From: Balanoglossus misakiensis
Taxonomy: Eukaryota > Animalia > Hemichordata
NCBI GenBank assembly: GCA_040954595.2
Contig: CM082590.2
Span: forward strand, 1 to 64,000
Direction of reading: 5' to 3'
DNA: 64,000 nucleotides
The notes under the pieces were generated by a model. It was not told the origin of the DNA. It did no database searches and was given only the letters and a program-made list of their open reading frames with translations. Both the position numbers and the translations under genes were made by a program. Below, piece after piece: positions 3,001 to 64,000 of this stretch; within the stretch, counting starts at the first letter, position 1, and every line of letters starts with the position of its first letter.

Positions 3001-3138
3001 AACCCTAACCCTAACCCTAACCCTAACCCTAACCCTAACCCTAACCCTAACCCTAACCCTAACCCTAACCCTAACCCTAACCCTAACCCTAACCCTAACC
3101 CTAACCCTAACCCTAACCCTAACCCTAACCCTAACCCT
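1..3138 (-). repeat. Telomeric array (CCCTAA)n, i.e. (TTAGGG)n on the minus strand; left chromosome end
   Basis: Perfect CCCTAA hexamers from about 340 to 3138. The first ~340 bp has scattered 1-bp indels and substitutions. The C-rich strand is on + at the start of the sequence, the expected polarity for a left end. Confidence 0.99.
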
Positions 3139-3145
3139 CAAACCC

Positions 3146-3530
3146 TTGACATTGGACCCTTGACCCCTTGATCTTTGATCTCCAAAACTTGAACACTAAC
3201 CCTTGACCATTGAACCTTCAACTTTAAACCTTGACCCTTGACCTCTTGACCTTAACTCCAACTTCTGATTTTTAACTCTAACCCTTGACCTTTGACCCCT
3301 TGATCCTTAATCTCCAACTCTTGAACTCTAACCCTTGACCTTTGATCTTTGACCCTTGAAATATAACCTTTGACCTTTGAACCCTTGACCCTTGATCTCC
3401 AACTCTTGAACTCTAACCCTTGAGCTTTGAACCTTCAACTCTAACCCTTGACCCTTGACCTCTTGACCTTAACTCCAACTTATGACTTTTGAACTCTAAC
3501 CCTTGACTTTTGACCCTTGACCTTTGACCA
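3146..3530 (-). repeat. Distal arm of the subtelomeric repeat; inverted copy of 5107-5491
   Basis: The reverse complement of 3146-3530 aligns without gaps to 5107-5491 (385 bp; I saw 2 mismatches). It includes the diagnostic variants AAAGCTCAAGGG, GGTTATATTTC, TTAAAAATCAG and GGGTCCAATGTCAA. Confidence 0.92.
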
Positions 3531-15290: not shown

Positions 15291-15709
15291 TATGAACAAA
15301 TTTCTCGTATGTCTCCTTCGTATCGAGGACATTTCCGATTTTTTTATTATATCGGGTCATGATAATATATTTTTCTCGTTCAATGTTACCCGTCAATCCG
15401 TCACAAAGTCACGATACAACATCAAGCAGACTGTGAAAAGATGTTTTTCCAGCCCCTGTTTTTCACTGTTGTATAGATGAAGTACATGTAATTATATGAA
15501 CAAAAAAAACTGTTTATGTAAGAGTAATTAATTGCAAAGAAGACTTCGGTTCGGCAGCGATTGCGGATATAGGTCTACAATAGGCGTTGAGATCAGCGAT
15601 GATATACGCCAGCTGAAACAAATACATATATACATGTTAAATATTAATACAGATCACTATGGAAACATGGAGTAAGCAGTAATCAGTATACAACAAAGGA
15701 AGAATTGTT

Positions 15710-15795
15710 CCACACTACATACACACACGATGCATATACATTGTACTCATGTGTGTACATTGTACACACATACATTGTACTCATATGCATACTGT
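15710..15795. repeat. Low-complexity (CA/TACA)-rich tract with repeated TACATTGTAC
   Basis: CACACTACATACACACAC followed by three TACATTGTAC motifs. Confidence 0.6.
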
Positions 15796-16027
15796 GCGGT
15801 ACCAAGGTAAATGTTACCGTGGGTCCTCAGTCATTTTACCGGGGTTCCCCTTGGTATATCAATGCAGTCATAGTTTAAGCAGAAGCGTTACTAGTGTTCC
15901 CCAGCCGTAGCAAAAACACTGATCTTGATCTGGCTAGATCTCATGTTTACCATGGTAACTGTAGTTAAATTTCCACAGGTGACAATATACCTTAACATAT
16001 CCCGGTAATTGTGTACTGAGTTCTTAC

Positions 16028-16217
16028 CCTGATGAGGTGGAAATACGATGTAATTGTTGTGAGTAGCAGTTCTGTATCCTGCTGGAAGACGTACGGTTGA
16101 AGCAACTCCAATAAGCCGAGAATGTGCGAGAAGAAGAGAAGATGGTGGCGAGATCGGAACTCGGGAAACGTCAGATGAACGCGTCCTTTCAAGGCGGCTG
16201 AAATCATGGCTATTTGT
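16028..16217 (-). pseudogene. INTS1: INTS1-like exon B, copy 1 (190 bp, phase 2 to phase 0), splice donor intact: (R)QIAMISAALKGRVHLTFPEFRSRHHLLFFSHILGLLELLQPYVFQQDTELLLTTITSYFHLIR
   Basis: The acceptor is tttcaaatttcag| and the donor is AGG|gtaaga. It joins exon A in frame across a 379-bp GT-AG intron (16218-16596). It resembles human INTS1 as I recall it: HLPMIAALLHGRTHLNFQEFRQQNHLSCFLHVLGLLELLQPHVF. Confidence 0.88.
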
Positions 16218-16596
16218 CTGAAATTTGAAAATGAGATAAATTGGACATCAAATCAGGTCCAATAATCAATATCATTCAAGGTAAGCTAATTACCAGGTCC
16301 AAAAAATATGACAAAGAACGATAATGTCAACAGGATCATCTTTAACCACTGCTAAGTGGTGGTACCAGGTGTCTTGAATGGGTAAGGCATATCAGGCCAG
16401 CATGCTACACCAAGTCAAGACTGACCACAAGTGACATGTTACAGTGAAATTTGGCTAACTATCGAACTACTGTTGCAAGTCAAATCCAGGAATGATGTCA
16501 CTCATCATTTGAGTGACAGACGTGTCACATTTTCACTGATCATCACTTTGATCTTAGAATGACCATTGTGACTGTCGGACATACTTATTTGCTTAC

Positions 16597-16730
16597 CTGA
16601 GTAACAATGTCGGATGAGATGTTGCTATCTTTCGGAGCGCAATGTTGGCATCATTCATTTTGTTTTCGCAATTTCGTCCAGCTTTTGTTGCGGCCAACGT
16701 CAACAATAAACTGTGGGCCAACACATCGAA
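16597..16730 (-). pseudogene. INTS1: INTS1-like exon A, copy 1 (134 bp, phase 0 to phase 2): FDVLAHSLLLTLAATKAGRNCENKMNDANIALRKIATSHPTLLL(R)
   Basis: On the minus strand the acceptor is tttgtttcag| and the donor is AG|gtaagc, with an open frame between. The translation resembles human INTS1 as I recall it: LDGLIHRFITLLADTSDSRALENRGADASMACRKLAVAHPLLLLR. This exon is not in the ORF track. Pseudogene status is inferred. Confidence 0.85.
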
Positions 16731-16875
16731 CTGAAACAAATATCAACCAAGACACTTAAAGGGTATTCTGTAAATATGTGTGTCTTTTCAAAATGTGCAT
16801 ACCATCTGTTATAATTTGGACTACCTATCACTTTTGACAGTTGTGACAAGAAAAAGGCACATCTACGCTAAACGG

Positions 16876-17020
16876 TACAGTGAAACCTGTCATTATGGAC
16901 ACCTCTCTATTAAAGGTATACAGTCACCTCCAATTTATACGCCCATATATGGCTGAAATGGCGTATTTGGGCATTATAAAGAACATATGTTGGCGCCCTT
17001 TTTTCGCGTGTGCCACCCAC
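16876..17020 (+). mobile_element. Possible truncated Tc1/mariner-pogo-type MITE end(s) in the intron of each monomer
   Basis: TA-CAGTGAAACCTGTC...GGACACCTCTCTATTAAAGG followed by a second TA-CAGTCACCTCC; TA+CAGT termini are typical of pogo/Tigger-like elements. No partner TIR was found. Confidence 0.3.
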
Positions 17021-20000
17021 TGAAAATCAGTGATTGGCTAGATCTCAAGTTTACCATGGTAACTGTAGTTAAATTTCCATAGGTGACAATATACCTTAAC
17101 ATATCCCGGTAATTGTGTAGAATAAGATGTCATTGTTGTGTGTAGCAGTTCAGTATCCTGCTGGAAGACGTACGGTTGAAGCAACTCCAATAAGCCGAGA
17201 ATGTGCGAGAAGAAGAGAAGATGGTGGCGAGATCGGAACTCGGGAAACGTCAGATGAACGCGTCTTTTCAAGGCGGCTGAAATCATGGCCATTTGTCTGA
17301 AATTTGAAAATGAGATAAATAGGACATCAAATCATGTCCAATAATCAATATCATTCAAGGTAAGCTAATTACCAGGTCCAAAAAATATGAGAAAGAACGA
17401 TAATGTCAACAGGATCATCTTTAACCACTGCTAAGTGGTGCTACCAGGTGTCTTGAATGGGTAAGGCATATCAGGCCAGCATGCTACACCAGTCAAGACT
17501 GACCACAAGTGACATGTTACAGTGAAATTTGGCTAACTATCGAACTACTGTTGCAAGTCAAATCCAGGAATGATGTCACTCATCATTTGAGTGACAGACG
17601 TGTCACATTTTCACTGATCATCACTTTGATCTTAGAATGACCATTGTGACTGTCGGACATACTTATTTGCTTACCCGAGTAACAATGTCGGATGAGATGT
17701 TGCTATCTTTCGGAGCGCAATGTTGGCATCATTCATTTTGTTTTCGCAATTTCGTCCAGCTTTTGTTGCGGCCAACGTCAACAATAAACTGTGGGTCAAC
17801 ACATCGAACTGAAACAAATATCAACCAAGACACTTAAAGGGTATTCTGTAAATATGTGTGTCTTTTCAAAATGTGCATACCATCTGTTATAATTTGCACT
17901 ACCTATCACTTTTGACAGTTGTGACAAGAAAAAGGCACATCTACGCTAAACGGTACAGTGAAACCTGTCATTATGGACACCTCTCTATTAAAGGTATACC
18001 GTCACCTCCAATTTATACGCCCATATATGGCTGAAATGGCGTATTTGGGCATTATAAAGAACATATGTTGGCGCCCTTTTTTCGCGTGTGCCACCCACTG
18101 AAAATCAGTGATTGGCTAGATCTCAAGTTTACCATGGTAACTGTAGTTAAATTTCCATAGGTGACAATATACCTTAACATATCCCGGTAATTGTGTAGAA
18201 TAAGATGTCATTGTTGTGTGTAGCAGTTCTGTATCCTGCTGGAAGACGTACGGTTGAAGCAACTCCAATAAGCCGAGAATGTGCGAGAAGAAGAGAAGAT
18301 GGTGGCGAGATCGGAACTCGGGAAACGTCAGATGAACGCGTCCTTTCAAGGCGGCTGAAATCATGGCTATTTGTCTGAAATTTGAAAATGAGATAAATTG
18401 GACATCAAATCAGGTCCAATAATCAATATCATTCAAGGTAAGCTAATTACCAGGTCCAAAAAATATGAGAAAGAACGATAATGTCAACAGGATCATCTTT
18501 AACCACTGCTAAGTGGTGGTACCAGGTGTCTTGAATGGGTAAGGCATATCAGGCCAGCATGCTACACCAAGTCAAGACTGACCACAAGTGACATGTTACA
18601 GTGAAATTTGGCTAACTATCGAACTACTGTTGCAAGTCAAATCCAGGAATGATGTCACTCATCATTTGAGTGACAGACGTGTCACATTTTCACTGATCAT
18701 CACTTTGATCTTAGAATGACCATTGTGACTGTCGGACATACTTATTTGCTTAACTGAGTAACAATGTCGGATGAGATGTTGCTATCTTTCGGAGCGCAAT
18801 GTTGGCATCATTCATTTTGTTTTCGCAATTTCGTCCAGCTTTTGTTGCGGCCAACGTCAACAATAAACTGTGGGTCAACACATCGAACTGAAACAAATAT
18901 CAACCAAGACACTTAAAGGGTATTCTGTAAATATGTGTGTCTTTTCAAAATGTGCATACCATCTGTTATAATTTGGACTACCTATCACTTTCGACAGTTG
19001 TGACAAGAAAAAGGCACATCTACGCTAAACGGTACAGTGAAACCTGTCATTATGGACACCTCTCTATTAAAGGTATACCGTCACCTCCAATTTATACGCC
19101 CATATATGGCTGAAATGGCGTATTTGGGCATTATAAAGAACATATGTTGGCGCCCTTTTTTCGCGTGTGCCACCCACTGAAAATCAGTGATTGGCTAGAT
19201 CTCAAGTTTACCATGGTAACTGTAGTTAAATTTCCATAGGTGACAATATACCTTAACATATCCCGGTAATTGTGTAGAATAAGATGTCATTGTTGTGTGT
19301 AGCAGTTCTGTATCCTGCTGGAAGACGTACGGTTGAAGCAACTCCAATAAGCCGAGAATGTGCGAGAAGAAGAGAAGATGGTGGCGAGATCGGAACTCGG
19401 GAAACGTCAGATGAACGCGTCCTTTCAAGGCGGCTGAAATCATGGCTATTTGTCTGAAATTTGAAAATGAGATAAATTGGACATCAAATCAGGTCCAATA
19501 ATCAATATCATTCAAGGTAAGCTAATTACCAGGTCCAAAAAATATGAGAAAGAACGATAATGTCAACAGGATCATCTTTAACCACTGCTAAGTGGTGGTA
19601 CCAGGTGTCTTGAATGGGTAAGGCATATCAGGCCAGCATGCTACACCAAGTCAAGACTGACCACAAGTGACATGTTACAGTGAAATTTGGCTAACTATCG
19701 AACTACTGTTGCAAGTCAAATCCAGGAATGATGTCACTCATCATTTGAGTGACAGACGTGTCACATTTTCACTGATCATCACTTTGATCTTAGAATGACC
19801 ATTGTGACTGTCGGACATACTTATTTGCTTACCTGAGTAACAATGTCGGATGAGATGTTGCTATCTTTCGGAGCGCAATGTTGGCATCATTCATTTTGTT
19901 TTCGCAATTTCGTCCAGCTTTTGTTGCGGCCAACGTCAACAATAAACTGTGGGTCAACACATCGAACTGAAACAAATATCAACCAAGACACTTAAAGGGT

Positions 20001-23000
20001 ATTCTGTAAATATGTGTGTCTTTTCAAAATGTGCATACCATCTGTTATAATTTGCACTACCTATCACTTTTGACAGTTGTGACAAGAAAAGGCACATCTA
20101 CGCTAAACGGTACAGTGAAACCTGTCATTATGGACACCTCTCTATTAAAGGTATACAGTCACCTCCAATTTATACGCCCATATATGGCTGAAATGGCGTA
20201 TTTGGGCATTATAAAGAACATATGTTGGCGCCCTTTTTTCGCGTGTGCCACCCACTGAAAATCAGTGATTGGCTAGATCTCAAGTTTACCATGGTAACTG
20301 TAGTTAAATTTCCATAGGTGACAATATACCTTAACATATCCCGGTAATTGTGTAGAATAAGATGTCATTGTTGTGTGTAGCAGTTCTGTATCCTGCTGGA
20401 AGACGTACGGTTGAAGCAACTCCAATAAGACGAGAATGTGCGAGAAGAAGAGAAGATGGTGGCGAGATCGGAACTCGGGAAACGTCAGATGAACGCGTCT
20501 TTTCAAGGCGGCTGAAATCATGGCCATTTGTCTGAAATTTGAAAATGAGATAAATAGGACATCAAATCAGGTCCAATAATCAATATCATTCAAGGTAAGC
20601 TAATTACCAGGTCCAAAAAATATGAGAAAGAACGATAATGTCAACAGGATCATCTTTAAGCACTGCTAAGTGGTGGTACCAGGTGTCTTGAATGGGTAAG
20701 GCATATTAGGCCAGCATGCTACACCAGTCAAGACTGACCACAAGTGACATGTTACAGTGAAATTTGGCTAACTATCGAACTACTGTTGCAAGTCAAATCC
20801 AGGAATGATGTCACTCATCATTTGAGTGACAGACGTGTCACATTTTCACTGACCATCACTTTGATCTTAGAATGACCATTGTGACTGTCGGACATACTTA
20901 TTTGCTTACCCGAGTAACAATGTCGGATGAGATGTTGCTATCTTTCGGAGCGCAATGTTGGCATAATTCATTTTGTTTTCGCAATTTCGTCCAGCTTTTG
21001 TTGCGGCCAACGTCAACGTCAACAATAAACTGTGGGTCAACACATCGAACTGAAACAAATATCAACCAAGACACTTAAAGTAAATATGTGTGTCTTTTCA
21101 AAATGTGCATACCATCTGTTATAATTTGCACTACCTATCACTTTTGACAGTTGTGACAAGAAAAAGGCACATCTACGCTAAACGGTACAGTGAAACCTGT
21201 CATTATGGACACCTCTCTATTAAAGGTATACAGTCACCTCCAATTTATACGCCCATATATGGCTGAAATGGCGTATTTGGGCATTATAAAGAACATATGT
21301 TGGCGCCCTTTTTTCGCGTGTGCCACCCACTGAAAATCAGTGATTGGCTAGATCTCAAGTTTACCATGGTAACTGTAGTTAAATTTCCATAGGTGACAAT
21401 ATACCTTAACATATCCCGGTAATTGTGTAGAATAAGATGTCATTGTTGTGTGTAGCAGTTCAGTATCCTGCTGGAAGACGTACGGTTGAAGCAACTCCAA
21501 TAAGCCGAGAATGTGCGAGAAGAAGAGAAGATGGTGGCGAGATCGGAACTCGGGAAACGTCAGATGAACGCGTCTTTTCAAGGCGGCTGAAATCATGGCC
21601 ATTTGTCTGAAATTTGAAAATGAGATAAATAGGACATCAAATCAGGTCCAATAATCAATATCATTCAAGGTAAGCTAATTACCAGGTCCAAAAAATATGA
21701 GAAAGAACGATAATGTCAACAGGATCATCTTTAACCACTGCTAAGTGGTGCTACCAGGTGTCTTGAATGGGTAAGGCATATCAGGCCAGCATGCTACACC
21801 AAGTCAAGACTGACCACAAGTGACATGTTACAGTGAAATTTGGCTAACTATCGAACTACTGTTGCAAGTCAAATCCAGGAATGATGTCACTCATCATTTG
21901 AGTGACAGACGTGTCACATTTTCACTGATCATCACTTTGATCTTAGAATGACCATTGTGACTGTCGGACATACTTATTTGCTTACCCGAGTAACAATGTC
22001 GGATGAGATGTTGCTATCTTTCGGAGCGCAATGTTGGCATCATTCATTTTGTTTTCGCAATTTCGTCCAGCTTTTGTTGCGGCCAACGTCAACAATAAAC
22101 TGTGGGTCAACACATCGAACTGAAACAAATATCAACCAAGACACTTAAAGGGTATTCTGTAAATATGTGTGTCTTTTCAAAATGTGCATACCATCTGTTA
22201 TAATTTGCACTACCTATCACTTTTGACAGTTGTGACAAGAAAAAGGCACATCTACGCTAAACGGTACAGTGAAACCTGTCATTATGGACACCTCTCTATT
22301 AAAGGTATACAGTCACCTCCAATTTATACGCCCATATATGGCTGAAATGGCGTATTTGGGCATTATAAAGAACATATGTTGGCGCCCTTTTTTCGCGTGT
22401 GCCACCCACTGAAAATCAGTGATTGGCTAGATCTCAAGTTTACCATGGTAACTGTAGTTAAATTTCCATAGGTGACAATATACCTTAACATATCCCGGTA
22501 ATTGTGTAGAATAAGATGTCATTGTTGTGTGTAGCAGTTCTGTATCCTGCTGGAAGACGTACGGTTGAAGCAACTCCAATAAGCCGAGAATGTGCGAGAA
22601 GAAGAGAAGATGGTGGCGAGATCGGAACCCGGGAAACGTCAGATGAACGCGTCTTTTCAAGGCGGCTGAAATCATGGCTATTTGTCTGAAATTTGAAAAT
22701 GAGATAAATAGGACATCAAATCAGGTCCAATAATCAATATCATTCAAGGTAAGCTAATTACCAGGTCCAAAAAATATGAGAAAGAACGATAATGTCAACA
22801 GGATCATCTTTAAGCACTGCTAAGTGGTGGTACCAGGTGTCTTGAATGGGTAAGGCATATCAGGCCAGCATGCTACACCAGTCAAGACTGACCACAAGTG
22901 ACATGTTACAGTGAAATTTGGCTAACTATCGAACTACTGTTGCAAGTCAAATCCAGGAATGATGTCACTCATCATTTGAGTGACAGACGTGTCACATTTT

Positions 23001-25721: not shown

Positions 25722-26035
25722 ATTATATTATACCAGTATATTGATGGTGTAAATCACGCTATTTGATTGGTCGAGACACGACACGTGACCGTGATATATT
25801 AGCCATATACCACAGTCATATATCATAGTCAAAGAAAATGCCTTTTTAAAATGTTTTATGCAAAGTTTCAATATACTGGCATAATATAATAGCAATAAAA
25901 CACCCCCAGCCATGGTATACCACTCGGTTTTGACCAGTTCAACTCCATATACGCACTCGCTATCGCTCGTGCGTATATGTCGTGAACTGGTCAAAATCTC
26001 GTGGTATACCATGGCTGGGAGTGTTTTATTGCTTA
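25722..26035. mobile_element. 314-bp non-autonomous DNA transposon inserted in array copy 10; two abutting inverted-repeat pairs; possibly Crypton-like
   Basis: Absent from all other copies, whose empty site reads CCTTAACAT (CCTTAACATATCCC in most). IR pair 1 is 25721-25744 / 25868-25891 (24 bp, 1 mismatch). IR pair 2 is a ~143-bp imperfect palindrome at 25891-26033. There is no clean target-site duplication. The superfamily assignment is tentative. Confidence 0.85.
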
Positions 26036-44000: not shown

Positions 44001-45462
44001 AAGACACTTAAAGGGTATTCTGTAAATATGTGTGTCTTTTCAAAATGTGCATACCATCTGTTATAATTTGGACTACCTATCACTTTTGACAGTTGTGACA
44101 AGAAAAAGGCACATCTACGCTAAACGGTACAGTGAAACCTGTCATTATGGACACCTCTCTATTAAAGGTAAACAGTCACCTCCAATTTATACGCCCATAT
44201 ATGGCTGAAATGGCCTATTTGGGCATTATAAAGAACATATGTTGGCGCCCTTTTTACGCGTGTGCCACCCACTGAAAATCAGTGATTGGCTAGATCTCAA
44301 GTTTACCATGGTAACTGTAGTTAAATTTCCATAGGTGACAATATACCTTAACATATCCCGGTAATTGTGTAGAATAAGATGTCATTGTTGTGTGTAGCAG
44401 TTCTGTATCCTGCTGGAAGACGTACGGTTGAAGCAACTCCAATAAGCCGAGAATGTGCGAGAAGAAGAGAAGATGGTGGCGAGATCGGAACTCGGGAAAC
44501 GTCAGATGAACGCGTCTTTTCAAGGCGGCTGAAATCATGGCCATTTGTCTGAAATTTGAAAATGAGATAAATAGGACATCAAATCAGGTCCAATAATCAA
44601 TATCATTCAAGGTAAGCTAATTACCAGGTCCAAAAAAATATGAGAAAGAACGATAATGTCAACAGGATCATCTTTAAGCACTGCTAAGTGGTGGTACCAG
44701 GTGTCTTGAATGGGTAAGGCATATCAGGCCAGCATGCTACACCAGTCAAGACTGACCACAAGTGACATGTTACAGTGAAATTTGGCTAACTATCGAACTA
44801 CTGTTGCAAGTCAAATCCAGGAATGATGTCATTCATCATTTGAGTGACAGACGTGTCACATTTTCACTGATCATCACTTTGATCTTAGAATGACCATTGT
44901 GACTGTCGGACATACTTATTTGCTTACCCGAGTAACAATGTCGGATGAGATGTTGCTATCTTTCGGAGCGCAATGTTGGCATAATTCATTTTGTTTTCGC
45001 AATTTCGTCCAGCTTTTGTTGCGGCCAACGTCAACAATAAACTGTGGGTCAACACATCGAACTGAAACAAATATCAACCAAGACACTTAAAGGGTATTCT
45101 GTAAATATGTGTGTCTTTTCAAAATGTGCATACCATCTGTTATAATTTGGACTACCTATCACTTTTGACAGTTGTGACAAGAAAAAGGCACATCTACGCT
45201 AAACGGTACAGTGAAACCTGTCATTATGGACACCTCTCTATTAAAGGTATACAGTCACCTCCAATTTATACGCCCATATATGGCTGAAATGGCGTATTTG
45301 GGCATTATAAAGAACATATGTTGGCGCCCTTTTTTCGCGTGTGCCACCCACTGAAAATCAGTGATTGGCTAGATCTCAAGTTTACCATGGTAACTGTAGT
45401 TAAATTTCCATAGGTGACAATATACCTTAACATATCCCGGTAATTGTGTAGTGAATTCTTAC

Positions 45463-46165
45463 CCTGGTGAGGTGGAAATAAGATGTCATTGTTGTGTGTA
45501 GCAGTTCTGTATCCTGCTGGAAGACGTACGGTTGAAGCAACTCCAATAAGCCGAGAATGTGCGAGAAGAAGAGAAGATGGTGGCGAGATCGGAACTCGGG
45601 AAACGTCAGATGAACGCGTCTTTTCAAGGCGGCTGAAATCATGGCTATTTGTCTGAAATTTGAAAATGAGATAAATTGGACATCAAATCAGGTCCAATAA
45701 TCAATATCATTCAAGGTAAGCTAATTACCAGGTCCAAAAAATATGAGAAAGAACGATAATGTCAACAGGATCATCTTTAACCACTGCTAAGTGGTGGTAC
45801 CAGGTGTCTTGAATGGGTAAGGCATATCAGGCCAGCATGCTACACCAAGTCAAGACTGACCACAAGTGACATGTTACAGTGAAATTTGGCTAACTATCGA
45901 ACTACTGTTGCAAGTCAAATCCAGGAATGATGTCACTCATCATTTGAGTGACTGACGTGTCACATTTTCACTGATCATCACTTTGATCTTAGAATGACCA
46001 TTGTGACTGTCGGACATACTTATTTGCTTACCTGAGTAACAATGTCGGATGAGATGTTGCTATCTTTCGGAGCGCAATGTTGGCATCATTCATTTTGTTT
46101 TCGCAATTTCGTCCAGCTTTTGTTGCGGCCAACGTCAACAATAAACTGTGGGTCAACACATCGAA
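45463..46165 (-). pseudogene. INTS1: INTS1-like two-exon module, copy 28, with all four splice sites intact (exon A 46032-46165, exon B 45463-45652)
   Basis: It keeps the 25 bp (45452-45476) that contains the exon B donor, and the exon A donor is AG|gtaagc. Matches ORF-track entry 45427..45642. Confidence 0.82.
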
Positions 46166-49100
46166 CTGAAACAAATATCAACCAAGACACTTAAAGGGTA
46201 TTCTGTAAATATGTGTGTCTTTTCAAAATGTGCATACCATCTGTTATAATTTGGACTACCTATCACTTTTGACAGTTGTGACAAGAAAAGGCACATCTAC
46301 GCTAAACGGTACAGTGAAACCTGTCATTATGGACACCTCTCTATTAAAGGTATACAGTCACCTCCAATTTATACGCCCATATATGGCTGAAATGGCGTAT
46401 TTGGGCATTATAAAGAACATATGTTGGCGCCCTTTTTTCGCGTGTGCCACCCACTGAAAATCAGTGATTGGCTAGATCTCAAGTTTACCATGGTAACTGT
46501 AGTTAAATTTCCATAGGTGACAATATACCTTAACATATCCCGGTAATTGTGTAGAATAAGATGTCATTGTTGTGTGTAGCAGTTCTGTATCCTGCTGGAA
46601 GACGTACGGTTGAAGCAACTCCAATAAGACGAGAATGTGCGAGAAGAAGAGAAGATGGTGGCGAGATCGGAACTCGGGAAACGTCAGATGAACGCGTCTT
46701 TTCAAGGCGGCTGAAATCATGGCCATTTGTCTGAAATTTGAAAATGAGATAAATAGGACATCAAATCAGGTCCAATAATCAATATCATTCAAGGTAAGCT
46801 AATTACCAGGTCCAAAAAATATGAGAAAGAACGATAATGTCAACAGGATCATCTTTAACCACTGCTAAGTGGTGCTACCAGGTGTCTTGAATGGGTAAGG
46901 CATATCAGGCCAGCATGCTACACCAGTCAAGACTGACCACAAGTGACATGTTACAGTGAAATTTGGCTAACTATCGAACTACTGTTGCAAGTCAAGTCCA
47001 GGAATGATGTCACTCATCATTTGAGTGACAGACGTGTCACATTTTCACTGACCATCACTTTGATCTTAGAATGACCATTGTGACTGTCGGACATACTTAT
47101 TTGCTTACCCGAGTAACAATGTCGGATGAGATGTTGCTATCTTTCGGAGCGCAATGTTGGCATAATTCATTTTGTTTTCGCAATTTCGTCCAGCTTTTGT
47201 TGCGGCCAACGTCAACAATAAACTGTGGGTCAACACATCGAACTGAAACAAATATCAACCAAGACACTTAAAGGGTATTCTGTAAATATGTGTGTCTTTT
47301 CAAAATGTGCATACCATCTGTTATAATTTGGACTACCTATCACTTTTGACAGTTGTGACAAGAAAAAGGCACATCTACGCTAAACGGTACAGTGAAACCT
47401 GTCATTATGGACACCTCTCTATTAAAGGTATACAGTCACCTCCAATTTATACGCCCATATATGGCTGAAATGGCGTATTTGGGCATTATAAAGAACATAT
47501 GTTGGCGCCCTTTTTTCGCGTGTGCCACCCACTGAAAATCAGTGGTTGGCTAGATCTCAAGTTTACCATGGTAACTGTAGTTAAATTTCCATAGGTGACA
47601 ATATACCTTAACATATCCCGGTAATTGTGTAGAATAAGATGTCATTGTTGTGTGTAGCAGTTCAGTATCCTGCTGGAAGACGTACGGTTGAAGCAACTCC
47701 AATAAGCCGAGAATGTGCGAGAAGAAGAGAAGATGGTGGCGAGATCGGAACTCGGGAAACGTCAGATGAACGCGTCTTTTCAAGGCGGCTGAAATCATGG
47801 CCATTTGTCTGAAATTTGAAAATGAGATAAATAGGACATCAAATCAGGTCCAATAATCAATATCATTCAAGGTAAGCTAATTACCAGGTCCAAAAAATAT
47901 GAGAAAGAACGATAATGTCAACAGGATTATCTTTAACCACTGCTAAGTGGTGCTACCAGGTGTCTTGAATGGGTAAGGCATATCAGGCCAGCATGCTACA
48001 CCAGTCAAGACTGACCACAAGTGACATGTTACAGTGAAATTTGGCTAACTATCGAACTACTGTTGCAAGTCAAATCCAGGAATGATGTCACTCATCATTT
48101 GAGTGACAGACGTGTCACATTTTCACTGATCATCACTTTGATCTTAGAATGACCATTGTGACTGTCGGACATACTTATTTGCTTACCCGAGTAACAATGT
48201 CGGATGAGATGTTGCTATCTTTCGGAGCGCAATGTTGGCATCATTCATTTTGTTTTCGCAATTTCGTCCAGCTTTTGTTGCGGCCAACGTCAACAATAAA
48301 CTGTGGGTCAACACATCGAACTGAAACAAATATCAACCAAGACACTTAAAGGGTATTCTGTAAATATGTGTGTCTTTTCAAAATGTGCATACCATCTGTT
48401 ATAATTTGGACTACCTAATACTTTTGACAGTTGTGACAAGAAAAAGGCACATCTACGCTAAACGGTACAGTGAAACCTGTCATTATGGACACCTCTCTAT
48501 TAAAGGTATACAGTCACCTCCAATTTATACGCCCATATATGGCTGAAATGGCGTATTTGGGCATTATAAAGAACATATGTTGGCGCCCTTTTTTCGCGTG
48601 TGCCACCCACTGAAAATCAGTGATTGGCTAGATCTCAAGTTTACCATGGTAACTGTAGTTAAATTTCCATAGGTGACAATATACCTTAACATATCCCGGT
48701 AATTGTGTAGAATAAGATGTTATTGTTGTGTGTAGCAGTTCTGTATCCTGCTGGATGACGTACGGTTGAAGCAACTCCAATAAGCCGAGAATGTGCGAGA
48801 AGAAGAGAAGATGGTGGCGAGATCGGAACTCGGGAAACGTCAGATGAACGCGTCTTTTCAAGGCGGCTGAAATCATGGCCATTTGTCTGAAATTTGAAAA
48901 TGAGATAAATAGGACATCAAATCAGGTCCAATAATCAATATCATTCAAGGTAAGCTAATTACCAGGTCCAAAAAATATGAGAAAGAACGATAATGTCAAC
49001 AGGATCATCTTTAACCACTGCTAAGTGGTGGTACCAGGTGTCTTGAATGGGTAAGGCATATCAGGCCAGCATGCTACACCAGTCAAGACTGACCACAAGT

Positions 49101-55100: not shown

Positions 55101-58100
55101 ATCTCAAGTTTACCATGGTAACTGTAGTTAAATTTCCATAGGTGACAATAAACCTTAACATATCCCGGTAATTGTGTAGAATAAGATGTCATTGTTGTGT
55201 GTAGCAGTTCTGTATCCTGCTGGAAGACGTACGGTTGAAGCAACTCCAATAAGCCGAGAATGTGCGAGAAGAAGAGAAGATGGTGGCGAGATCGGAACTC
55301 GGGAAACGTCAGATGAACGCGTCTTTTCAAGGCGGCTGAAATCATGGCCATTTGTCTGAAATTTGAAAATGAGATAAATAGGACATCAAATCAGGTCCAA
55401 TAATCAATATCATTCAAGGTAAGCTAATTACCAGGTCCAAAAAATATGAGAAAGAACGATAATGTCAACAGGATCATCTTTAACCACTGCTAAGTGGTGG
55501 TACCAGGTGTCTTGAATGGGTAAGGCATATCAGGCCAGCATGCTACACCAGTCAAGACTGACCACAAGTGACATGTTACAGTGAAATTTGGCTAACTATC
55601 GAACTACTGTTGCAAGTCAAATCCAGGAATGATGTCACTCATCATTTGAGTGACAGACGTGTCACATTTTCACTGATCATCACTTTGATCTTAGAATGAC
55701 CATTGTGACTGTCGGACATACTTATTTGCTTACCTGAGTAACAATGTCGGATGAGATGTTGCTATCTTTCGGAGCGCAATGTTGGCATCATTCATTTTGT
55801 TTTCGCAATTTCGTCCAGCTTTTGTTGCGGCCAACGTCAACAATAAACTGTGGATCAACACATCGAACTGAAACAAATATCAACCAAGACACTTAAAGGG
55901 TATTCTGTAAATATGTGTGTCTTTTCAAAATGTGCATACCATCTGTTATAATTTGGACTACCTATCACTTTTGACAGTTGTGACAAGAAAAAGGCACATC
56001 TACGCTAAACGGTACAGTGAAACCTGTCATTATGGACACCTCTCTATTAAAGGTATACAGTCACCTCCAATTTATACGCCCATATATGGCTGAAATGGCG
56101 TATTTGGGCATTATAAAGAACATATGTTGGCGCCCTTTTTTCGCGTGTGCCACCCACTGAAAATCAGTGATTGGCTAGATCTCAAGTTTACCATGGTAAC
56201 TGTAGTTAAATTTCCATAGGTGACAATATACCTTAACATATCCCGGTAATTGTGTAGAATAAGATGTCATTGTTGTGTGTAGCAGTTCTGTATCCTGCTG
56301 GAAGACGTACGGTTGAAGCAACTCCAATAAGCCGAGAATGTGCGAGAAGAAGAGAAGATGGTGGCGAGATCGGAACTCGGGAAACGTCAGATGAACGCGT
56401 CTTTTCAAGGCGGCTGAAATCATGGCCATTTGTCTGAAATTTGAAAATGAGATAAATAGGACATCAAATCAGGTCCAATAATCAATATCATTCAAGGTAA
56501 GCTAATTACCAGGTCCAAAAAATATGAGAAAGAACGATAGTGTCAACAGGATCATCTTTAAGCACTGCTAAGTGGTGGTACCAGGTGTCTTGAATGGGTA
56601 AGGCATATCAGGCCAGCATGCTACACCAGTCAAGACTGACCACAAGTGACATGTTACAGTGAAATTTGGCTAACTATCGAACTACTGTTGCAAGTCAAAT
56701 CCAGGAATGATGTCACTCATCATTTGAGTGACAGACGTGTCACATTTTCACTGATCATCACTTTGATCTTAGAATGACCATTGTGACTGTCGGACATACT
56801 TATTTGCTTACCCGAGTAACAATGTCGGATGAGATGTTGCTATCTTTCGGAGCGCAATGTTGGCATCATTCATTTTGTTTTCGCAATTTCGTCCAGCTTT
56901 TGTTGCGGCCAAAGTCAACAATAAACTGTGGGTCAACACATCGAACTGAAACAAATATCAACCAAGACACTTAAAGGGTATTCTGTAAATATGTGTGTCT
57001 TTTCAAAATGTGCATACCATCTGTTATAATTTGGACTACCTATCACTTTTGACAGTTGTGACAAGAAAAAGGCACATCTACGCTAAACGGTACAGTATAT
57101 CCTGTCATTATGGACACCTCTCTATTAAAGGTATACAGTCACCTCCAATTTATACGCCCATATATGGCTGAAATGGCGTATTTGGGCATTATAAAGAACA
57201 TATGTTGGCGCCCTTTTTACGCGTGTGCCACCCACTGAAAATCAGTGATTGGCTAGATCTCAAGTTTACCATGGTAACTGTAGTTAAATTTCCATAGGTG
57301 ACAATATACCTTAACATTTCCCGGTAATTGTGTAGAATAAGATGTCATTGTTGTGTGTAGCAGTTCTGTATCCTGCTGGAAGACGTACGGTTGAAGCAAC
57401 TCCAATAAGCCGAGAATGTGCGAGAAGAAGAGAAGATGGTGGCGAGATCGGAACTCGGGAAACGTCAGATGAACGCGTCCTTTCAAGGCGGCTGAAATCA
57501 TGGCTATTTGTCTGAAATTTGAAAATGAGATAAATTGGACATCAAATCAGGTCCAATAATCAATATCATTCAAGGTAAGCTAATTACCAGGTCCAAAAAA
57601 TATGAGAAAGAACGATAATGTCAACAGGATCATCTTTAACCACTGCTAAGTGGTGGTACCAGGTGTCTTGAATGGGTAAGGCATATCAGGCCAGCATGCT
57701 ACACCAAGTCAAGACTGACCACAAGTGACATGTTACAGTGAAATTTGGCTAACTATCGAACTACTGTTGCAAGTCAAATCCAGGAATGATGTCACTCATC
57801 ATTTGAGTGACTGACGTGTCACATTTTCACTGATCATCACTTTGATCTTAGAATGACCATTGTGACTGTCGGACATACTTATTTGCTTACCTGAGTAACA
57901 ATGTCGGATGAGATGTTGCTATCTTTCGGAGCGCAATGTTGGCATCATTCATTTTGTTTTCGCAATTTCGTCCAGCTTTTGTTGCGGCCAACGTCAACAA
58001 TAAACTGTGGGTCAACACATCGAACTGAAACAAATATCAACCAAGACACTTAAAGGGTATTCTGTAAATATGTGTGTCTTTTCAAAATGTGCATACCATC

Positions 58101-61100
58101 TGTTATAATTTGGACTACCTATCACTTTTGACAGTTGTGACAAGAAAAAAGCACATCTACGCTAAACGGTACAGTGAAACCTGTCATTATGGACACCTCT
58201 CTATTAAAGGTATACAGTCACCTCCAATTTATACGCCCATATATGGCTGAAATGGCGTATTTGGGCATTATAAAGAACATATGTTGGCGCCCTTTTTTCG
58301 CGTGTGCCACCCACTGAAAATCAGTGATTGGCTAGATCTCAAGTTTACCATGGTAACTGTAGTTAAATTTCCATAGGTGACAATATACCTTAACATATCC
58401 CGGTAATTGTGTAGAATAAGATGTCATTGTTGTGTGTAGCAGTTCTGTATCCTGCTGGAAGACGTACGGTTGAAGCAACTCCAATAAGCCGAGAATGTGC
58501 GAGAAGAAGAGAAGATGGTGGCGAGATCGGAACTCGGGAAACGTCAGATGAACGCGTCTTTTCAAGGCGGCTGAAATCATGGCCATTTGTCTGAAATTTG
58601 AAAATGAGATAAATTGGACATCAAATCAGGTCCAATAATCAATATCATTCAAGGTAAGCTAATTACCAGGTCCAAAAAATATGAGAAAGAACGATAATGT
58701 CAACAGGATCATCTTTAACCACTGCTAAGTGGTGGTACCAGGTGTCTTGAATGGGTAAGGCATATCAGGCCAGCATGCTACACCAAGTCAAGACTGACCA
58801 CAACTGACATGTTACAGTGAAATTTGGCTAACTATCGAACTACTGTTGCAAGTCAAATCCAGGAATGATGTCACTCATCATTTGAGTGACAGACGTGTCA
58901 CATTTTCACTGATCATCACTTTGATCTTAGAATGACCATTGTGACTGTCGGACATACTTATTTGCTTACCCGAGTAACAATGTCGGATGAGATGTTGCTA
59001 TCTTTCGGAGCGCAATGTTGGCATCATTCATTTTGTTTTCGCAATTTCGTCCAGCTTTTGTTGCGGCCAACGTCAACAATAAACTGTGGGTCAACACATC
59101 GAACTGAAACAAATATCAACCAAGACACTTAAAGGGTATTCTGTAAATATGTGTGTCTTTTCAAAATGTGCATACCATCTGTTATAATTTGGACTACCTA
59201 TCACTTTTGACAGTTGTGACAAGAAAAAGGCACATCTACGCTAAACGGTACAGTGAAACCTGTCATTATGGACACCTCTCTATTAAAGGTATACAGTCAC
59301 CTCCAATTTATACGCCCATATATGGCTGAAATGGCGTATTTGGGCATTATAAAGAACATATGTTGGCGCCCTTTTTTCGCGTGTGCCACCCACTGAAAAT
59401 CAGTGATTGGCTAGATCTCAAGTTTACCATGGTAACTGTAGTTAAATTTCCATAGGTGACAATATACCTTAACATATCCCGGTAATTGTGTAGAATAAGA
59501 TGTCATTGTTGTGTGTAGCAGTTCTGTATCCTGCTGGAAGACGTACGGTTGAAGCAACTCCAATAAGCCGAGAATGTGCGAGAAGAAGAGAAGATGGTGG
59601 CGAGATCGGAACTCGGGAAACGTCAGATGAACGCGTCTTTTCAAGGCGGCTGAAATCATGGCCATTTGTCTGAAATTTGAAAATGAGATAAATTGGACAT
59701 CAAATCAGGTCCAATAATCAATATCATTCAAGGTAAGCTAATTACCAGGTCCAAAAAATATGAGAAAGAACGATAATGTCAACAGGATCATCTTTAACCA
59801 CTGCTAAGTGGTGGTACCAGGTGTCTTGAATGGGTAAGGCATATCAGGCCAGCATGCTACACCAAGTCAAGACTGACCACAACTGACATGTTACAGTGAA
59901 ATTTGGCTAACTATCGAACTACTGTTGCAAGTCAAATCCAGGAATGATGTCACTCATCATTTGAGTGACAGACGTGTCACATTTTCACTGATCATCACTT
60001 TGATCTTAGAATGACCATTGTGACTGTCGGACATACTTATTTGCTTACCCGAGTAACAATGTCGGATGAGATGTTGCTATCTTTCGGAGCGCAATGTTGG
60101 CATCATTCATTTTGTTTTCGCAATTTCGTCCAGCTTTTGTTGCGGCCAACGTCAACAATAAACTGTGGGTCAACACATCGAACTGAAACAAATATCAACC
60201 AAGACACTTAAAGGGTATTCTGTAAATATGTGTGTCTTTTCAAAATGTGCATACCATCTGTTATAATTTGGACTACCTATCACTTTTGACAGTTGTGACA
60301 AGAAAAAGGCACATCTACGCTAAACGGTACAGTGAAACCTGTCATTATGGACACCTCTCTATTAAAGGTATACAGTCACCTCCAATTTATACGCCCATAT
60401 ATGGCTGAAATGGCGTATTTGGGCATTATAAAGAACATATGTTGGCGCCCTTTTTTCGCGTGTGCCACCCACTGAAAATCAGTGATTGGCTAGATCTCAA
60501 GTTTACCATGGTAACTGTAGTTAAATTTCCATAGGTGACAATATACCTTAACATATCCCGGTAATTGTGTAGAATAAGATGTCATTGTTGTGTGTAGCAG
60601 TTCTGTATCCTGCTGGAAGACGTACGGTTGAAGCAACTCCAATAAGCCGAGAATGTGCGAGAAGAAGAGAAGATGGTGGCGAGATCGGAACTCGGGAAAC
60701 GTCAGATGAACGCGTCTTTTCAAGGCGGCTGAAATCATGGCCATTTGTCTGAAATTTGAAAATGAGATAAATAGGACATCAAATCAGGTCCAATAATCAA
60801 TATCATTCAAGGTAAGCTAATTACCAGGTCCAAAAAATATGAGAAAGAACGATAATGTCAACAGGATCATCTTTAACCACTGCTAAGTGGTGGTACCAGG
60901 TGTCTTGAATGGGTAAGGCATATCAGGCCAGCATGCTACACCAGTCAAGACTGACCACAAGTGACATGTTACAGTGAAATTTGGCTAACTATCGAACTAC
61001 TGTTGCAAGTCAAATCCAGGAATGATGTCACTCATCATTTGAGTGACAGACGTGTCACATTTTCACTGATCATCACTTTGATCTTAGAATGACCATTGTG

Positions 61101-63818
61101 ACTGTCGGACATACTTATTTGCTTACCTGAGTAACAATGTCGGATGAGATGTTGCTATCTTTCGGAGCGCAATGTTGGCATCATTCATTTTGTTTTCGCA
61201 ATTTCGTCCAGCTTTTGTTGCGGCCAACGTCAACAATAAACTGTGGGTCAACACATCGAACTGAAACAAATATCAACCAAGACACTTAAAGGGTATTCTG
61301 TAAATATGTGTGTCTTTTCAAAATGTGCATACCATCTGTTATAATTTGGACTACCTATCACTTTTGACAGTTGTGACAAGAAAAAGGCACATCTACGCTA
61401 AACGGTACAGTGAAACCTGTCATTATGGACACCTCTCTATTAAAGGTATACAGTCACCTCCAATTTATACGCCCATATATGGCTGAAATGGCGTATTTGG
61501 GCATTATAAAGAACATATGTTGGCGCCCTTTTTTCGCGTGTGCCACCCACTGAAAATCAGTGATTGGCTAGATCTCAAGTTTACCATGGTAACTGTAGTT
61601 AAATTTCCATAGGTGACAATATACCTTAACATATCCCGGTAATTGTGTAGAATAAGATGTCATTGTTGTGTGTAGCAGTTCTGTATCCTGCTGGAAGACG
61701 TACGGTTGAAGCAACTCCAATAAGCCGAGAATGTGCGAGAAGAAGAGAAGATGGTGGCGAGATCGGAACTCGGGAAACGTCAGATGAACGCGTCTTTTCA
61801 AGGCGGCTGAAATCATGGCCATTTGTCTGAAATTTGAAAATGAGATAAATAGGACATCAAATCAGGTCCAATAATCAATATCATTCAAGGTAAGCTAATT
61901 ACCAGGTCCAAAAAATATGAGAAAGAACGATAGTGTCAACAGGATCATCTTTAAGCACTGCTAAGTGGTGGTACCAGGTGTCTTGAATGGGTAAGGCATA
62001 TCAGGCCAGCATGCTACACCAGTCAAGACTGACCACAAGTGACATGTTACAGTGAAATTTGGCTAACTATCGAACTACTGTTGCAAGTCAAATCCAGGAA
62101 TGATGTCACTCATCATTTGAGTGACAGACGTGTCACATTTTCACTGATCATCACTTTGATCTTAGAATGACCATTGTGACTGTCGGACATACTTATTTGC
62201 TTACCCGAGTAACAATGTCGGATGAGATGTTGCTATCTTTCGGAGCGCAATGTTGGCATCATTCATTTTGTTTTCGCAATTTCGTCCAGCTTTTGTTGCG
62301 GCCAAAGTCAACAATAAACTGTGGGTCAACACATCGAACTGAAACAAATATCAACCAAGACACTTAAAGGGTATTCTGTAAATATGTGTGTCTTTTCAAA
62401 ATGTGCATACCATCTGTTATAATTTGGACTACCTATCACTTTTGACAGTTGTGACAAGAAAAAGGCACATCTACGCTAAACGGTACAGTATATCCTGTCA
62501 TTATGGACACCTCTCTATTAAAGGTATACAGTCACCTCCAATTTATACGCCCATATATGGCTGAAATGGCGTATTTGGGCATTATAAAGAACATATGTTG
62601 GCGCCCTTTTTACGCGTGTGCCACCCACTGAAAATCAGTGATTGGCTAGATCTCAAGTTTACCATGGCAACTGTAGTTAAATTTCCATAGGTGACAATAT
62701 ACCTTAACATTTCCCGGTAATTGTGTAGAATAAGATGTCATTGTTGTGTGTAGCAGTTCTGTATCCTGCTGGAAGACGTACGGTTGAAGCAACTCCAATA
62801 AGCCGAGAATGTGCGAGAAGAAGAGAAGATGGTGGCGAGATCGGAACTCGGGAAACGTCAGATGAACGCGTCCTTTCAAGGCGGCTGAAATCATGGCTAT
62901 TTGTCTGAAATTTGAAAATGAGATAAATTGGACATCAAATCAGGTCCAATAATCAATATCATTCAAGGTAAGCTAATTACCAGGTCCAAAAAATATGAGA
63001 AAGAACGATAATGTCAACAGGATCATCTTTAACCACTGCTAAGTGGTGGTACCAGGTGTCTTGAATGGGTAAGGCATATCAGGCCAGCATGCTACACCAA
63101 GTCAAGACTGACCACAAGTGACATGTTACAGTGAAATTTGGCTAACTATCGAACTACTGTTGCAAGTCAAATCCAGGAATGATGTCACTCATCATTTGAG
63201 TGACTGACGTGTCACATTTTCACTGATCATCACTTTGATCTTAGAATGACCATTGTGACTGTCGGACATACTTATTTGCTTACCTGAGTAACAATGTCGG
63301 ATGAGATGTTGCTATCTTTCGGAGCGCAATGTTGGCATCATTCATTTTGTTTTCGCAATTTCGTCCAGCTTTTGTTGCGGCCAACGTCAACAATAAACTG
63401 TGGGTCAACACATCGAACTGAAACAAATATCAACCAAGACACTTAAAGGGTATTCTGTAAATATGTGTGTCTTTTCAAAATGTGCATACCATCTGTTATA
63501 ATTTGGACTACCTATCACTTTTGACAGTTGTGACAAGAAAAAAGCACATCTACGCTAAACGGTACAGTGAAACCTGTCATTATGGACACCTCTCTATTAA
63601 AGGTATACAGTCACCTCCAATTTATACGCCCATATATGGCTGAAATGGCGTATTTGGGCATTATAAAGAACATATGTTGGCGCCCTTTTTTCGCGTGTGC
63701 CACCCACTGAAAATCAGTGATTGGCTAGATCTCAAGTTTACCATGGTAACTGTAGTTAAATTTCCATAGGTGACAATATACCTTAACATATCCCGGTAAT
63801 TGTGTAGTGAATTCTTAC

Positions 63819-64000
63819 CCTGGTGAGGTGGAAATAAGATGTCATTGTTGTGTGTAGCAGTTCTGTATCCTGCTGGAAGACGTACGGTTGAAGCAACTCC
63901 AATAAGCCGAGAATGTGCGAGAAGAAGAGAAGATGGTGGCGAGATCGGAACTCGGGAAACGTCAGATGAACGCGTCCTTTCAAGGCGGCTGAAATCATGG
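63819..64000 (-). pseudogene. INTS1: INTS1-like exon B, copy 45, donor intact, cut by the window edge
   Basis: TGAATTCTTACCCTGGTGAGGTGGA is present at about 63808-63832. Matches ORF-track entry 63783..63998. Confidence 0.8.

What the first reader, a model, noticed from the sequence alone, without database searches (positions are those of the whole stretch)
15931..64000. Subtelomeric macrosatellite made from a two-exon piece of the Integrator subunit INTS1 gene
Seen: each ~1078-bp monomer has two minus-strand exons (134 bp, plus 190 bp in intact copies) that splice in frame across a ~379-bp GT-AG intron, and the monomer is repeated at least 45 times within 16-64 kb of the telomere. Knowledge: the spliced peptide (DANIALRKIATSHPTLLLRQIAMISAALKGRVHL...HILGLLELLQPYVF) resembles the INTS1 C-terminal region as I recall it, and INTS1 is normally a conserved single-copy scaffold of the Pol II termination and snRNA-processing complex. 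Inference: a genomic (intron-containing, so not retroposed) fragment was amplified into a satellite. If transcribed, it could yield repetitive sense or antisense RNA, or small RNAs matching the parental mRNA. I know of no described case, but cannot search.
Basis: partly seen in the sequence, partly recalled or inferred. Interest (0 to 1): 0.85.

Follow-up and report, generated by a model that had tools for sequence, protein, structure and literature searches.

The report
Telomere-side satellite built from INTS1 exons
Near a chromosome end of what is likely an acorn worm, a 1.08-kb piece of the Integrator gene INTS1 (two exons, intron DNA and a small transposon) is repeated head to tail at least 44 times; it was likely seeded by that transposon and mutates like non-coding DNA, so it is probably a young satellite made from gene scrap and not a working gene.

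Summary
Confirmed. The window starts with a 3.1-kb telomere. From 15,931 to its end it holds 44 full monomers and one partial (about 1,078 bp, 0.66% apart). Both exons match INTS1: Pfam INT1_R3, human INTS1 in the PDB, and Ptychodera flava INTS1 at 96% and 82%. A transcriptome-like run splices out the 379-bp intron exactly and runs on into sequence absent here, likely the intact parent gene. Read depth (about 80-210 times the flank) argues against an artefact.

First, the monomer junction lies inside a 183-bp TTAA-target MITE, which likely seeded the duplication. Second, the array is not under coding constraint: 42 of 44 copies lost the exon B donor, 39 of 44 change near-invariant residues, and exons vary as much as introns.

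Best reading: a young, neutrally evolving gene-fragment satellite. A small-RNA or read-through role is untested. Ten paper searches found no INTS1 array, but amplified gene fragments in heterochromatin are known. The scan has no look-alike of this sequence; it noted similar exon-intron arrays in other genomes.

The parts
15931..64000 (.). Tandem array, 44 full monomers of about 1,078 bp plus one partial; runs off the window end
   Evidence: 39 distinct of 44, mean pairwise difference 0.66%
16597..16730 (-). INTS1 exon A in copy 1 (134 bp, phase 0 to 2)
   Evidence: Pfam INT1_R3 2-44; human INTS1 1836-1878; 96% to P. flava INTS1
16218..16596 (-). 379-bp GT-AG intron in copy 1; holds pieces of dispersed repeats near 16,244-16,386 and about 16,450-16,570
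   Evidence: joint 16217/16597, ends CT..AC, in 2 contigs of X5; repeat contigs there
16028..16217 (-). INTS1 exon B in copy 1 (190 bp, phase 2 to 0, donor intact)
   Evidence: Pfam INT1_R3 46-108; human INTS1 1881-1929; 82% to P. flava INTS1
16016..16040 (-). 25 bp spanning the exon B donor, deleted in 42 of 44 full copies
   Evidence: alignment columns 85-109
16914..17096 (.). 183-bp MITE spanning each monomer junction: 17-nt inverted ends (88%), TTAA on the left, one base short of TTAA on the right; Kolobok-like
   Evidence: inverted arms 16913-16929/17081-17097; many other genomic copies leave the window sequence at 16,910 and 17,097 (loose ends)
15931..15993 (.). Right 63 bp only of the same MITE at the telomere-side edge of the array
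   Evidence: the DNA to its left does not align to the MITE's left part
16876..16909 (.). End of a second small dispersed element into which the MITE inserted (Tc1/mariner-like class recalled, not tested)
   Evidence: loose ends at 16,876 and 16,909
15281..15930 (.). Non-array flank, likely the INTS1 intron downstream of exon B; no further INTS1 exon found
   Evidence: an X2 contig links 15,895 to 15,997 without the MITE; tblastn best E 1.9 over 5,901-15,990
45366..46468 (-). Copy 28: keeps the exon B donor, likely the ancestral monomer type (the partial copy at 63,722-64,000 is the same type)
25722..26035 (.). 314-bp insertion with a long internal palindrome in copy 10 only, at the TTAA beside the MITE end; later than the amplification
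7842..15280 (.). Neighbouring AT-rich 623-bp satellite, about 12 copies, unrelated to INTS1
2..3138 (+). Telomere, (CCCTAA)n, 524 units

Best explanation
This is a head-to-tail array of an intron-bearing two-exon piece of INTS1 beside a telomere; it likely began as a duplication whose breakpoint fell at a small TTAA-target transposon, likely grew by unequal exchange, and its sequence changes as expected for non-functional satellite DNA. Shown: the array, the INTS1 match, the MITE across every junction, donor loss in 42 of 44 copies, and equal variation in exons and introns. Inferred steps: (1) part of INTS1, with about 650 bp of downstream intron, came to lie at this chromosome end as a duplicate while an intact parent stayed elsewhere. 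(2) A MITE in the intron upstream of exon A recombined with a MITE end about 35 bp past the exon B donor, or its end was transposed there. That gave a first tandem pair with upstream-intron DNA on one side of the MITE and downstream-intron DNA on the other. (3) A copy with a 25-bp deletion arose early and drifted to dominance. (4) Block duplication and conversion took the array to roughly 80-210 copies. It makes no INTS1 protein. If transcribed at all, this is probably incidental read-through toward the telomere.
For: Neutrality: variable columns are 17 of 311 in exons, 32 of 583 in intron/other and 10 of 184 in the MITE (5.5%, 5.5%, 5.4%; Fisher P = 1.0). 3 of 17 exon variants are synonymous against 23.7% expected (P = 0.78). 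Codon 45 is R in 85 of 86 homologues but G in 33 of 44 copies; codon 56 is G in 130 of 135 but R in 35 of 44; 39 of 44 copies carry at least one. Parent elsewhere: the spliced X5 contig runs 123 nt past exon B into sequence not in 15,250-17,110, and its two listed differences from all array copies are synonymous. No other part of INTS1 is in the window. MITE; TTAA site and RR ends define Kolobok (PMC6004289 passages). Unequal exchange: 5 identical pairs (13=17, 15=19, 35=37, 38=43, 40=41), i.e. 4-, 2- and 5-copy block repeats, and 38 of 136 site pairs fail the four-gamete test. Real array: single monomer contigs at depth 5,050 and 6,256 (X1) and 11,320 (X2), against flank contigs at 30-33 and 54-83.
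Against: The parent locus could not be read (no genome), so the two-MITE starting state is not seen. The terminal MITE is only 63 bp, and a contig at depth 1,730 in X2 joins exon B's intron to the flank with no MITE at all, so the order of events at the edge is open. The array is so young (0.66%) that the neutrality tests rest on 17 variants and say nothing about selection on RNA or copy number. No exon A or B stop codon or frameshift occurs in the 44 copies apart from the donor deletion. X5 has contigs over the flank at depth 3-6 and a second spliced contig with the base of 19 array copies at 16,211, so some transcription here is not excluded.
Confidence: 0.72

Rival explanations
1. The array is a subtelomeric small-RNA or antisense source that tunes or silences the parent INTS1 gene in trans, as telomeric insertions do in Drosophila.
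For: Exons are about 98-99% identical to the expressed form (7 differences in 191 bp against copy 1, four of the six listed being array alleles), enough for guide pairing. The position is subtelomeric, where trans-silencing is described in flies (PMC2547894, PMC3291502; search listings only). Protein-level neutrality does not bear on an RNA role. The flank appears in X5 contigs.
Against: All 46 hits are in one orientation, so there is no hairpin precursor. No Rfam match in 5,900-18,200. Exons are no better conserved than introns, though only exons could target the mRNA. Spliced INTS1 is present in X5. Silencing a core Integrator subunit should be costly (established knowledge).
Confidence: 0.12
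2. The array lies inside a transcribed, 3'-truncated INTS1 copy whose promoter and upstream exons are beyond 64 kb, and is spliced into a repeat protein of many R3 fragments (like the two-exon repeats of LPA or NBPF, recalled).
For: Exon A plus exon B is 324 nt, a whole number of codons. In deletion copies a weak cryptic donor at the MITE end would give a stop-free 336-nt unit in 39 of 44 copies. The sense strand runs toward the telomere.
Against: True donor B is lost in 42 of 44 copies and donor A in 3 of 44. Near-invariant residues are changed in 39 of 44. There is no synonymous excess. An in-frame cryptic site has a 1-in-3 prior. No 3' INTS1 exons lie downstream.
Confidence: 0.06
3. The unit was excised as a small DNA circle, rolled into a concatemer and inserted at the chromosome end, or was carried there by a transposon, with no in-place duplication.
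For: High homogeneity and one orientation. Rolling-circle concatemers are a described route to tandems (PMC5932611 passages).
Against: The terminal copy continues into about 650 bp of non-array DNA that an independent contig ties to the exon B intron, which fits growth in place inside a larger duplicated piece. Block repeats and recombinant haplotypes show later unequal exchange in any case.
Confidence: 0.08
4. The array is an assembly artefact.
For: It sits next to a telomere, and X1/X2 may be the same sample as the assembly.
Against: 39 of 44 copies are distinct, with structured variants and a private insertion. Short-read contig depth is 80-210 times the flank. A 999-bp deletion-type monomer contig occurs in a second sample (X3/X4).
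Confidence: 0.02

Closest known systems
Human macrosatellites TAF11-like, PRR20, SST1, ZAV (PMC3018141, passages) and subtelomeric D4Z4 (search listings)
   Same: Head-to-tail kilobase monomers in tens to more than 100 copies; some carry gene sequence; D4Z4 is subtelomeric.
   Different: Monomers there are 2.4-6.6 kb and hold a complete gene (PRR20, DUX4) or no clear ORF. Here the 1.08-kb monomer is an internal fragment of a conserved gene, without start, stop or promoter, and is decaying.
Duplicated exons of Y-linked genes and PCKR/Su(Ste) in the Drosophila simulans clade and D. melanogaster (PMC8794474, passages)
   Same: Subsets of exons copied repeatedly in heterochromatin, mostly non-functional; one related array, Su(Ste), became a piRNA source.
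   Different: Those are testis genes on a Y chromosome, and the exon copies lie beside the parent. Here a housekeeping gene piece forms one homogeneous subtelomeric satellite.
Pseudogene-rich satellite blocks of alpaca (NEK10-like, ATF-5, FMN2 fragments; PMC13751797, passages)
   Same: Multi-copy fragments of ordinary single-copy genes in repeat-rich DNA, attributed to genomic context and not selection.
   Different: The paper says those copies are dispersed, of variable length and not a simple tandem array; here the fragment is itself the monomer.
Hyperexpanded segmental duplications in chimpanzee and gorilla subterminal caps (PMC3371704, passages)
   Same: Formerly unique DNA amplified to hundreds of copies at chromosome ends among satellites.
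   Different: 36-45-kb segments interleaved with a simple satellite at many ends; here a 1-kb exon-bearing unit at one known end.
Transposon-seeded satellites (PMC5932611, passages; Helitron-derived subtelomeric repeat of Hydractinia, PMC11934779, abstract; Xmix/Xstir T2-MITE, PMC6004289, passages)
   Same: Transposon sequence gives the first repeat on which unequal exchange acts.
   Different: There the monomer is the transposon or part of it; here the transposon is 17% of the monomer and the rest is host gene.
Intragenic two-exon repeats LPA KIV-2 and NBPF Olduvai (recalled, no call)
   Same: A two-exon unit with its introns, in frame, amplified in tandem.
   Different: Those stay spliced and translated inside a whole gene; here the donor is lost, conserved residues are changed, and the 3' part of the gene is absent.

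Membership tests
INTS1-derived sequence | Match to an INTS1-specific family above the curated cut-off | tested here: met
   PF22927 INT1_R3, 73.1 and 45.2 bits against 27; PDB INTS1 the only hits
INTS1-derived sequence | The predicted intron is removed in a spliced form | tested here: met
   joint skipping 379 bp, CT..AC, 2 contigs of X5; X5 is listed as 'DNA?', its RNA nature is inferred
Macrosatellite | Kilobase monomers head to tail in tens of copies | tested here: met
   44 full copies of 1,069-1,104 bp, one of 1,392 bp; shorter than the 2.4-6.6 kb units in PMC3018141 Table 2
Macrosatellite | Copy number varies between individuals | not testable with these tools
   one own-species sample with DNA contigs
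Gene-bearing array (D4Z4/PRR20 type) | Each monomer holds a complete gene | tested here: not met
   only residues 1758-1866 of 2,125 match
Intragenic coding exon repeat (LPA/NBPF type, recalled) | The unit keeps the reading frame | tested here: met
   134 + 190 = 324 nt
Intragenic coding exon repeat (LPA/NBPF type, recalled) | Splice sites kept and coding sites constrained | tested here: not met
   donor B in 2 of 44; exon and intron variation equal
Processed retrocopy | No introns | tested here: not met
   379-bp intron in every copy
Kolobok non-autonomous element (junction MITE) | TTAA target site and RR-starting inverted ends | tested here: met
   left TTAA, ends start AG, 17-nt arms 88%; the right site is one base short in the array, while other genomic copies continue with the full site; definition in PMC6004289
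T2-MITE subfamily of Kolobok | Terminal AGGRR | tested here: not met
   fourth base is T
Kolobok non-autonomous element (junction MITE) | An autonomous partner with the same ends | not testable with these tools
   no genome held
Subtelomeric piRNA cluster / trans-silencer | Produces germline small RNAs that repress a homologous gene | not testable with these tools
   no small-RNA run of this organism listed

The most novel reading that the evidence does not exclude
A satellite built from the exons of INTS1 sits in telomeric heterochromatin and is read toward the telomere, giving piRNAs or spliced repeat RNA that match the parent mRNA. Copy number at one chromosome end would then set the dose of the Integrator complex, the machine that ends this kind of read-through transcription, making a natural, copy-number-variable feedback loop. 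The spread of the donor deletion would reflect selection against a toxic in-frame repeat protein.
Probability: 0.1. Interest if true: 0.75.

Novelty: new variant of a known kind. Interest (0 to 1): 0.38.

Why it matters
It is an unusually clean snapshot of satellite birth from host gene sequence. The source gene, the likely seeding transposon, an early deletion that swept the array and the block duplications can all be read from one locus. Unlike most satellites, it has an expressed single-copy reference for dating and rooting. It offers a natural test of whether about 100 or more heterochromatic copies of a core gene's exons silence the parent in trans. Practically, such arrays distort RNA and DNA mapping, variant calls and gene models for INTS1. 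On present evidence it is a genome-evolution curiosity, not a new functional system.

Tried and rejected
No assembly was held, so the parent locus, other chromosome ends and the far end of the array were not seen. The look-up of sequencing runs: no RNA holder listed. X7, an RNA run of organism B, laid 0 reads, which is no test. X5 has no cover at 16,762-16,824, and no deletion-type or monomer-spanning contig is among the rows shown (176 pieces not shown); this is no evidence on array expression. Homologue search with exon B among longer proteins found none, being limited to 2,000 residues. The search for short INTS1 R3 fragments gave 1 of 471 candidates, a 49% metagenome protein, so no annotated fragment array elsewhere; weak evidence. 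The full-length search gave 9 of 125 candidates and no near-identical parent protein. A candidate acceptor at 15,612 opens a 30-codon frame with no Pfam match and no INTS1 match; rejected as the next exon. The idea that 15,790-15,930 is the left part of the same MITE was rejected: 482 of 500 shuffles scored as well; a TIR-like motif near 15,804 is left open. A motif from the MITE-less X2 joint is absent from the window at up to 2 mismatches. Rfam: 0 matches in 5,900-18,200. Papers opened without bearing: PMC13535481 (passages), PMC12054243 (one reference-list hit). PMC3014980 (passages) describes whole-gene tandem arrays by unequal crossover. No supplements were read. No fold or complex prediction was run, as the domain is already identified.
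Full report
Observation. The window begins with 524 CCCTAA units (2-3138). BLASTN of one monomer gives 46 hits in one orientation that tile 15,931-64,000: 44 full copies and a 279-bp partial one, with copy 10 split by an insertion. Copies differ by 0.66% on average and 39 of 44 are distinct. Each has, on the minus strand, a 134-bp exon A, a 378-380-bp intron and an exon B acceptor. The exon B donor survives in 2 of 44 full copies (1 and 28) and in the partial copy; 42 share a 25-bp deletion across it.

Identity. Searched separately, the exons hit consecutive parts of Pfam INT1_R3 above the cut-off and human INTS1 1836-1878 and 1881-1929, the only PDB matches. The best of 135 hits in the representative library is Ptychodera flava INTS1, XP_070581337.1, at 96% for exon A and 82% for exon B; Glandiceps talaboti gives 76% and 75%. 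The animal is therefore likely an acorn worm nearer to Ptychodera; earlier notes on this genome say the same. Six full-length INTS1 proteins match the window only over this 109-residue stretch, and a relaxed search of 5,901-15,990 found nothing better than E 1.9. This locus cannot encode INTS1 on its own.

Is it real? No assembly was held. Five of 24 listed runs hold part of the stretch. In two DNA-like runs of organism A, single contigs inside the monomer have depth 5,050 and 6,256 (X1) and 11,320 (X2). The flank at 15,307-15,434 has two variants at 33 and 30 (X1) and 83 and 54 (X2). By my arithmetic that is about 80-100 copies if the two variants are alleles and about 140-210 if each is a locus. 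The tool warns that depth is not copy number, the baseline is a single flank, and the sample may be the assembled one, so this is a range only. A 999-bp deletion-type monomer contig with two variants absent from all 44 window copies (16,531 and 16,582) occurs in a sample labelled as another organism (X3/X4, depth 11). It may come from another individual as a contaminant; it is one contig.

Splicing and the parent. Run X5 (organism A, 28 Mb of contigs, listed as 'DNA?') has two contigs that skip exactly 16,218-16,596 with GT-AG ends, and its exon depth is only 4-9. I infer that it is a transcriptome. One contig continues 123 nt beyond exon B into sequence not in 15,250-17,110, likely the next exon of an intact parent. 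Of its 7 differences from copy 1, six are listed: four are array alleles and two (16,067, 16,088) are synonymous and absent from the array. The second spliced contig has the base found in 19 of 44 copies at 16,211; it may be the other parental allele or an array transcript, and I cannot tell which.

No coding constraint. Variable columns are 17 of 311 in exons, 32 of 583 in intron/other and 10 of 184 in the MITE (Fisher P = 1.0). One exon column comes from the deletion edge and two intron columns from my trimming of copy 10, which leaves both at 5.1%. Three of 17 exon variants are synonymous against 23.7% expected (P = 0.78). Among 136 aligned homologues, codon 45 is R in 85 of 86 that cover it and codon 56 is G in 130 of 135; the array has G in 33 of 44 and R in 35 of 44, and only 5 copies are free of both. 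Against this, the sample of variants is small, there is no stop codon in the exons, and a weak cryptic donor would keep the frame in 39 of 44 copies.

Origin. Dozens of contigs from other genomic copies part from the window exactly at 16,910 and 17,097 and continue with the TTAA site. TTAA and RR ends are the Kolobok hallmarks (PMC6004289, passages); the AGGRR motif of T2-MITEs is not met. At every junction the element has upstream-intron DNA on one side and DNA from about 35 bp past the exon B donor on the other, one base short of a full target site. That is the pattern expected if the first duplication broke at the MITE, by recombination between two copies or by transposition of one end (inference). 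At the telomere-side edge only the right 63 bp are present. An X2 contig at depth 1,730 joins the exon B intron to the same flank without the MITE, and X1/X5 contigs carry the window-type flank. So the flank is likely native intron and exists in more than one form; which is ancestral is open. Growth by unequal exchange is shown by five identical pairs at spacings of 1, 2, 4, 4 and 5 copies and by 38 of 136 incompatible site pairs.

Function. I put 0.72 on a neutral young satellite, 0.12 on a small-RNA or antisense regulator of INTS1, 0.06 on a spliced repeat protein, 0.08 on a circle-derived origin and 0.02 on artefact. All copies face one way, so there is no hairpin route, and Rfam is blank. 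The sense strand runs toward the telomere, and X5 has contigs over the flank at depth 3-6, strand unknown, so read-through is possible. No small-RNA data could be examined.

Comparison with what is known. Ten full-text searches listed no INTS1-derived array. In one search none of the 20 listed of 309 papers contains INTS1; none of 15 concerns a repeat array by title or abstract start. Only listings were seen for most papers, and subscription journals are largely missing. Related cases exist: macrosatellites with whole genes (PMC3018141, passages), repeated exon subsets on Drosophila Y chromosomes (PMC8794474, passages), dispersed pseudogene fragments in alpaca satellite blocks (PMC13751797, passages), hyperexpanded duplications in ape subterminal caps (PMC3371704, passages) and transposon-seeded satellites (PMC5932611, passages; PMC11934779, abstract). 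LPA and NBPF are recalled. The scan's notes hold no look-alike sequence but do describe exon-plus-intron arrays in other genomes, so the kind recurs.

Verdict. It is best read as a new variant of a known kind: a homogeneous subtelomeric satellite whose monomer is a transposon-bounded internal fragment of a conserved gene, already decaying. Interest 0.38.

Noticed in passing
window 3140-3530 and 5107-5497: The 391 bp next to the telomere are a 99% identical inverted copy of 5,107-5,497, inside a degenerate telomere-like repeat (3,199-5,940) that otherwise faces the opposite way. It looks like a recent fold-back at a broken end, followed by new telomere addition.
   Followed up: partly
window 7842-15280: AT-rich 623-bp satellite, about 12 copies, with a 4-copy higher-order repeat (8,305 and 10,796 identical); 5,940-7,800 holds about 70% identical older relatives of its subunits.
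   Followed up: partly
window 25722-26035: 314-bp insertion in copy 10 with an 86% internal palindrome (25,891-26,033), placed at the TTAA beside the MITE end; resembles non-autonomous Crypton- or Helentron-type elements (class recalled, not tested).
   Followed up: partly
window 15847-16045 (X2 contig): A contig at depth 1,730, roughly 13-30 times the flank, joins the exon B donor region to the flank with 38 other letters and no MITE; it may mark a second amplified INTS1 unit or many chromosome ends.
   Followed up: partly
window 15250-15627 and 15771-15923 (X5): The flank, up to its border with the 623-bp satellite, is present in the transcriptome-like run at depth 3-6 with 1-5% differences; a strong acceptor sits at 15,612 on the minus strand and opens a 30-codon frame of no known family.
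   Followed up: partly
window 15931-16062: The terminal copy has most of its private differences in its telomere-side 130 bp, several clustered within 47 bp, as if the edge escaped homogenisation or came from an older duplicate.
   Followed up: no
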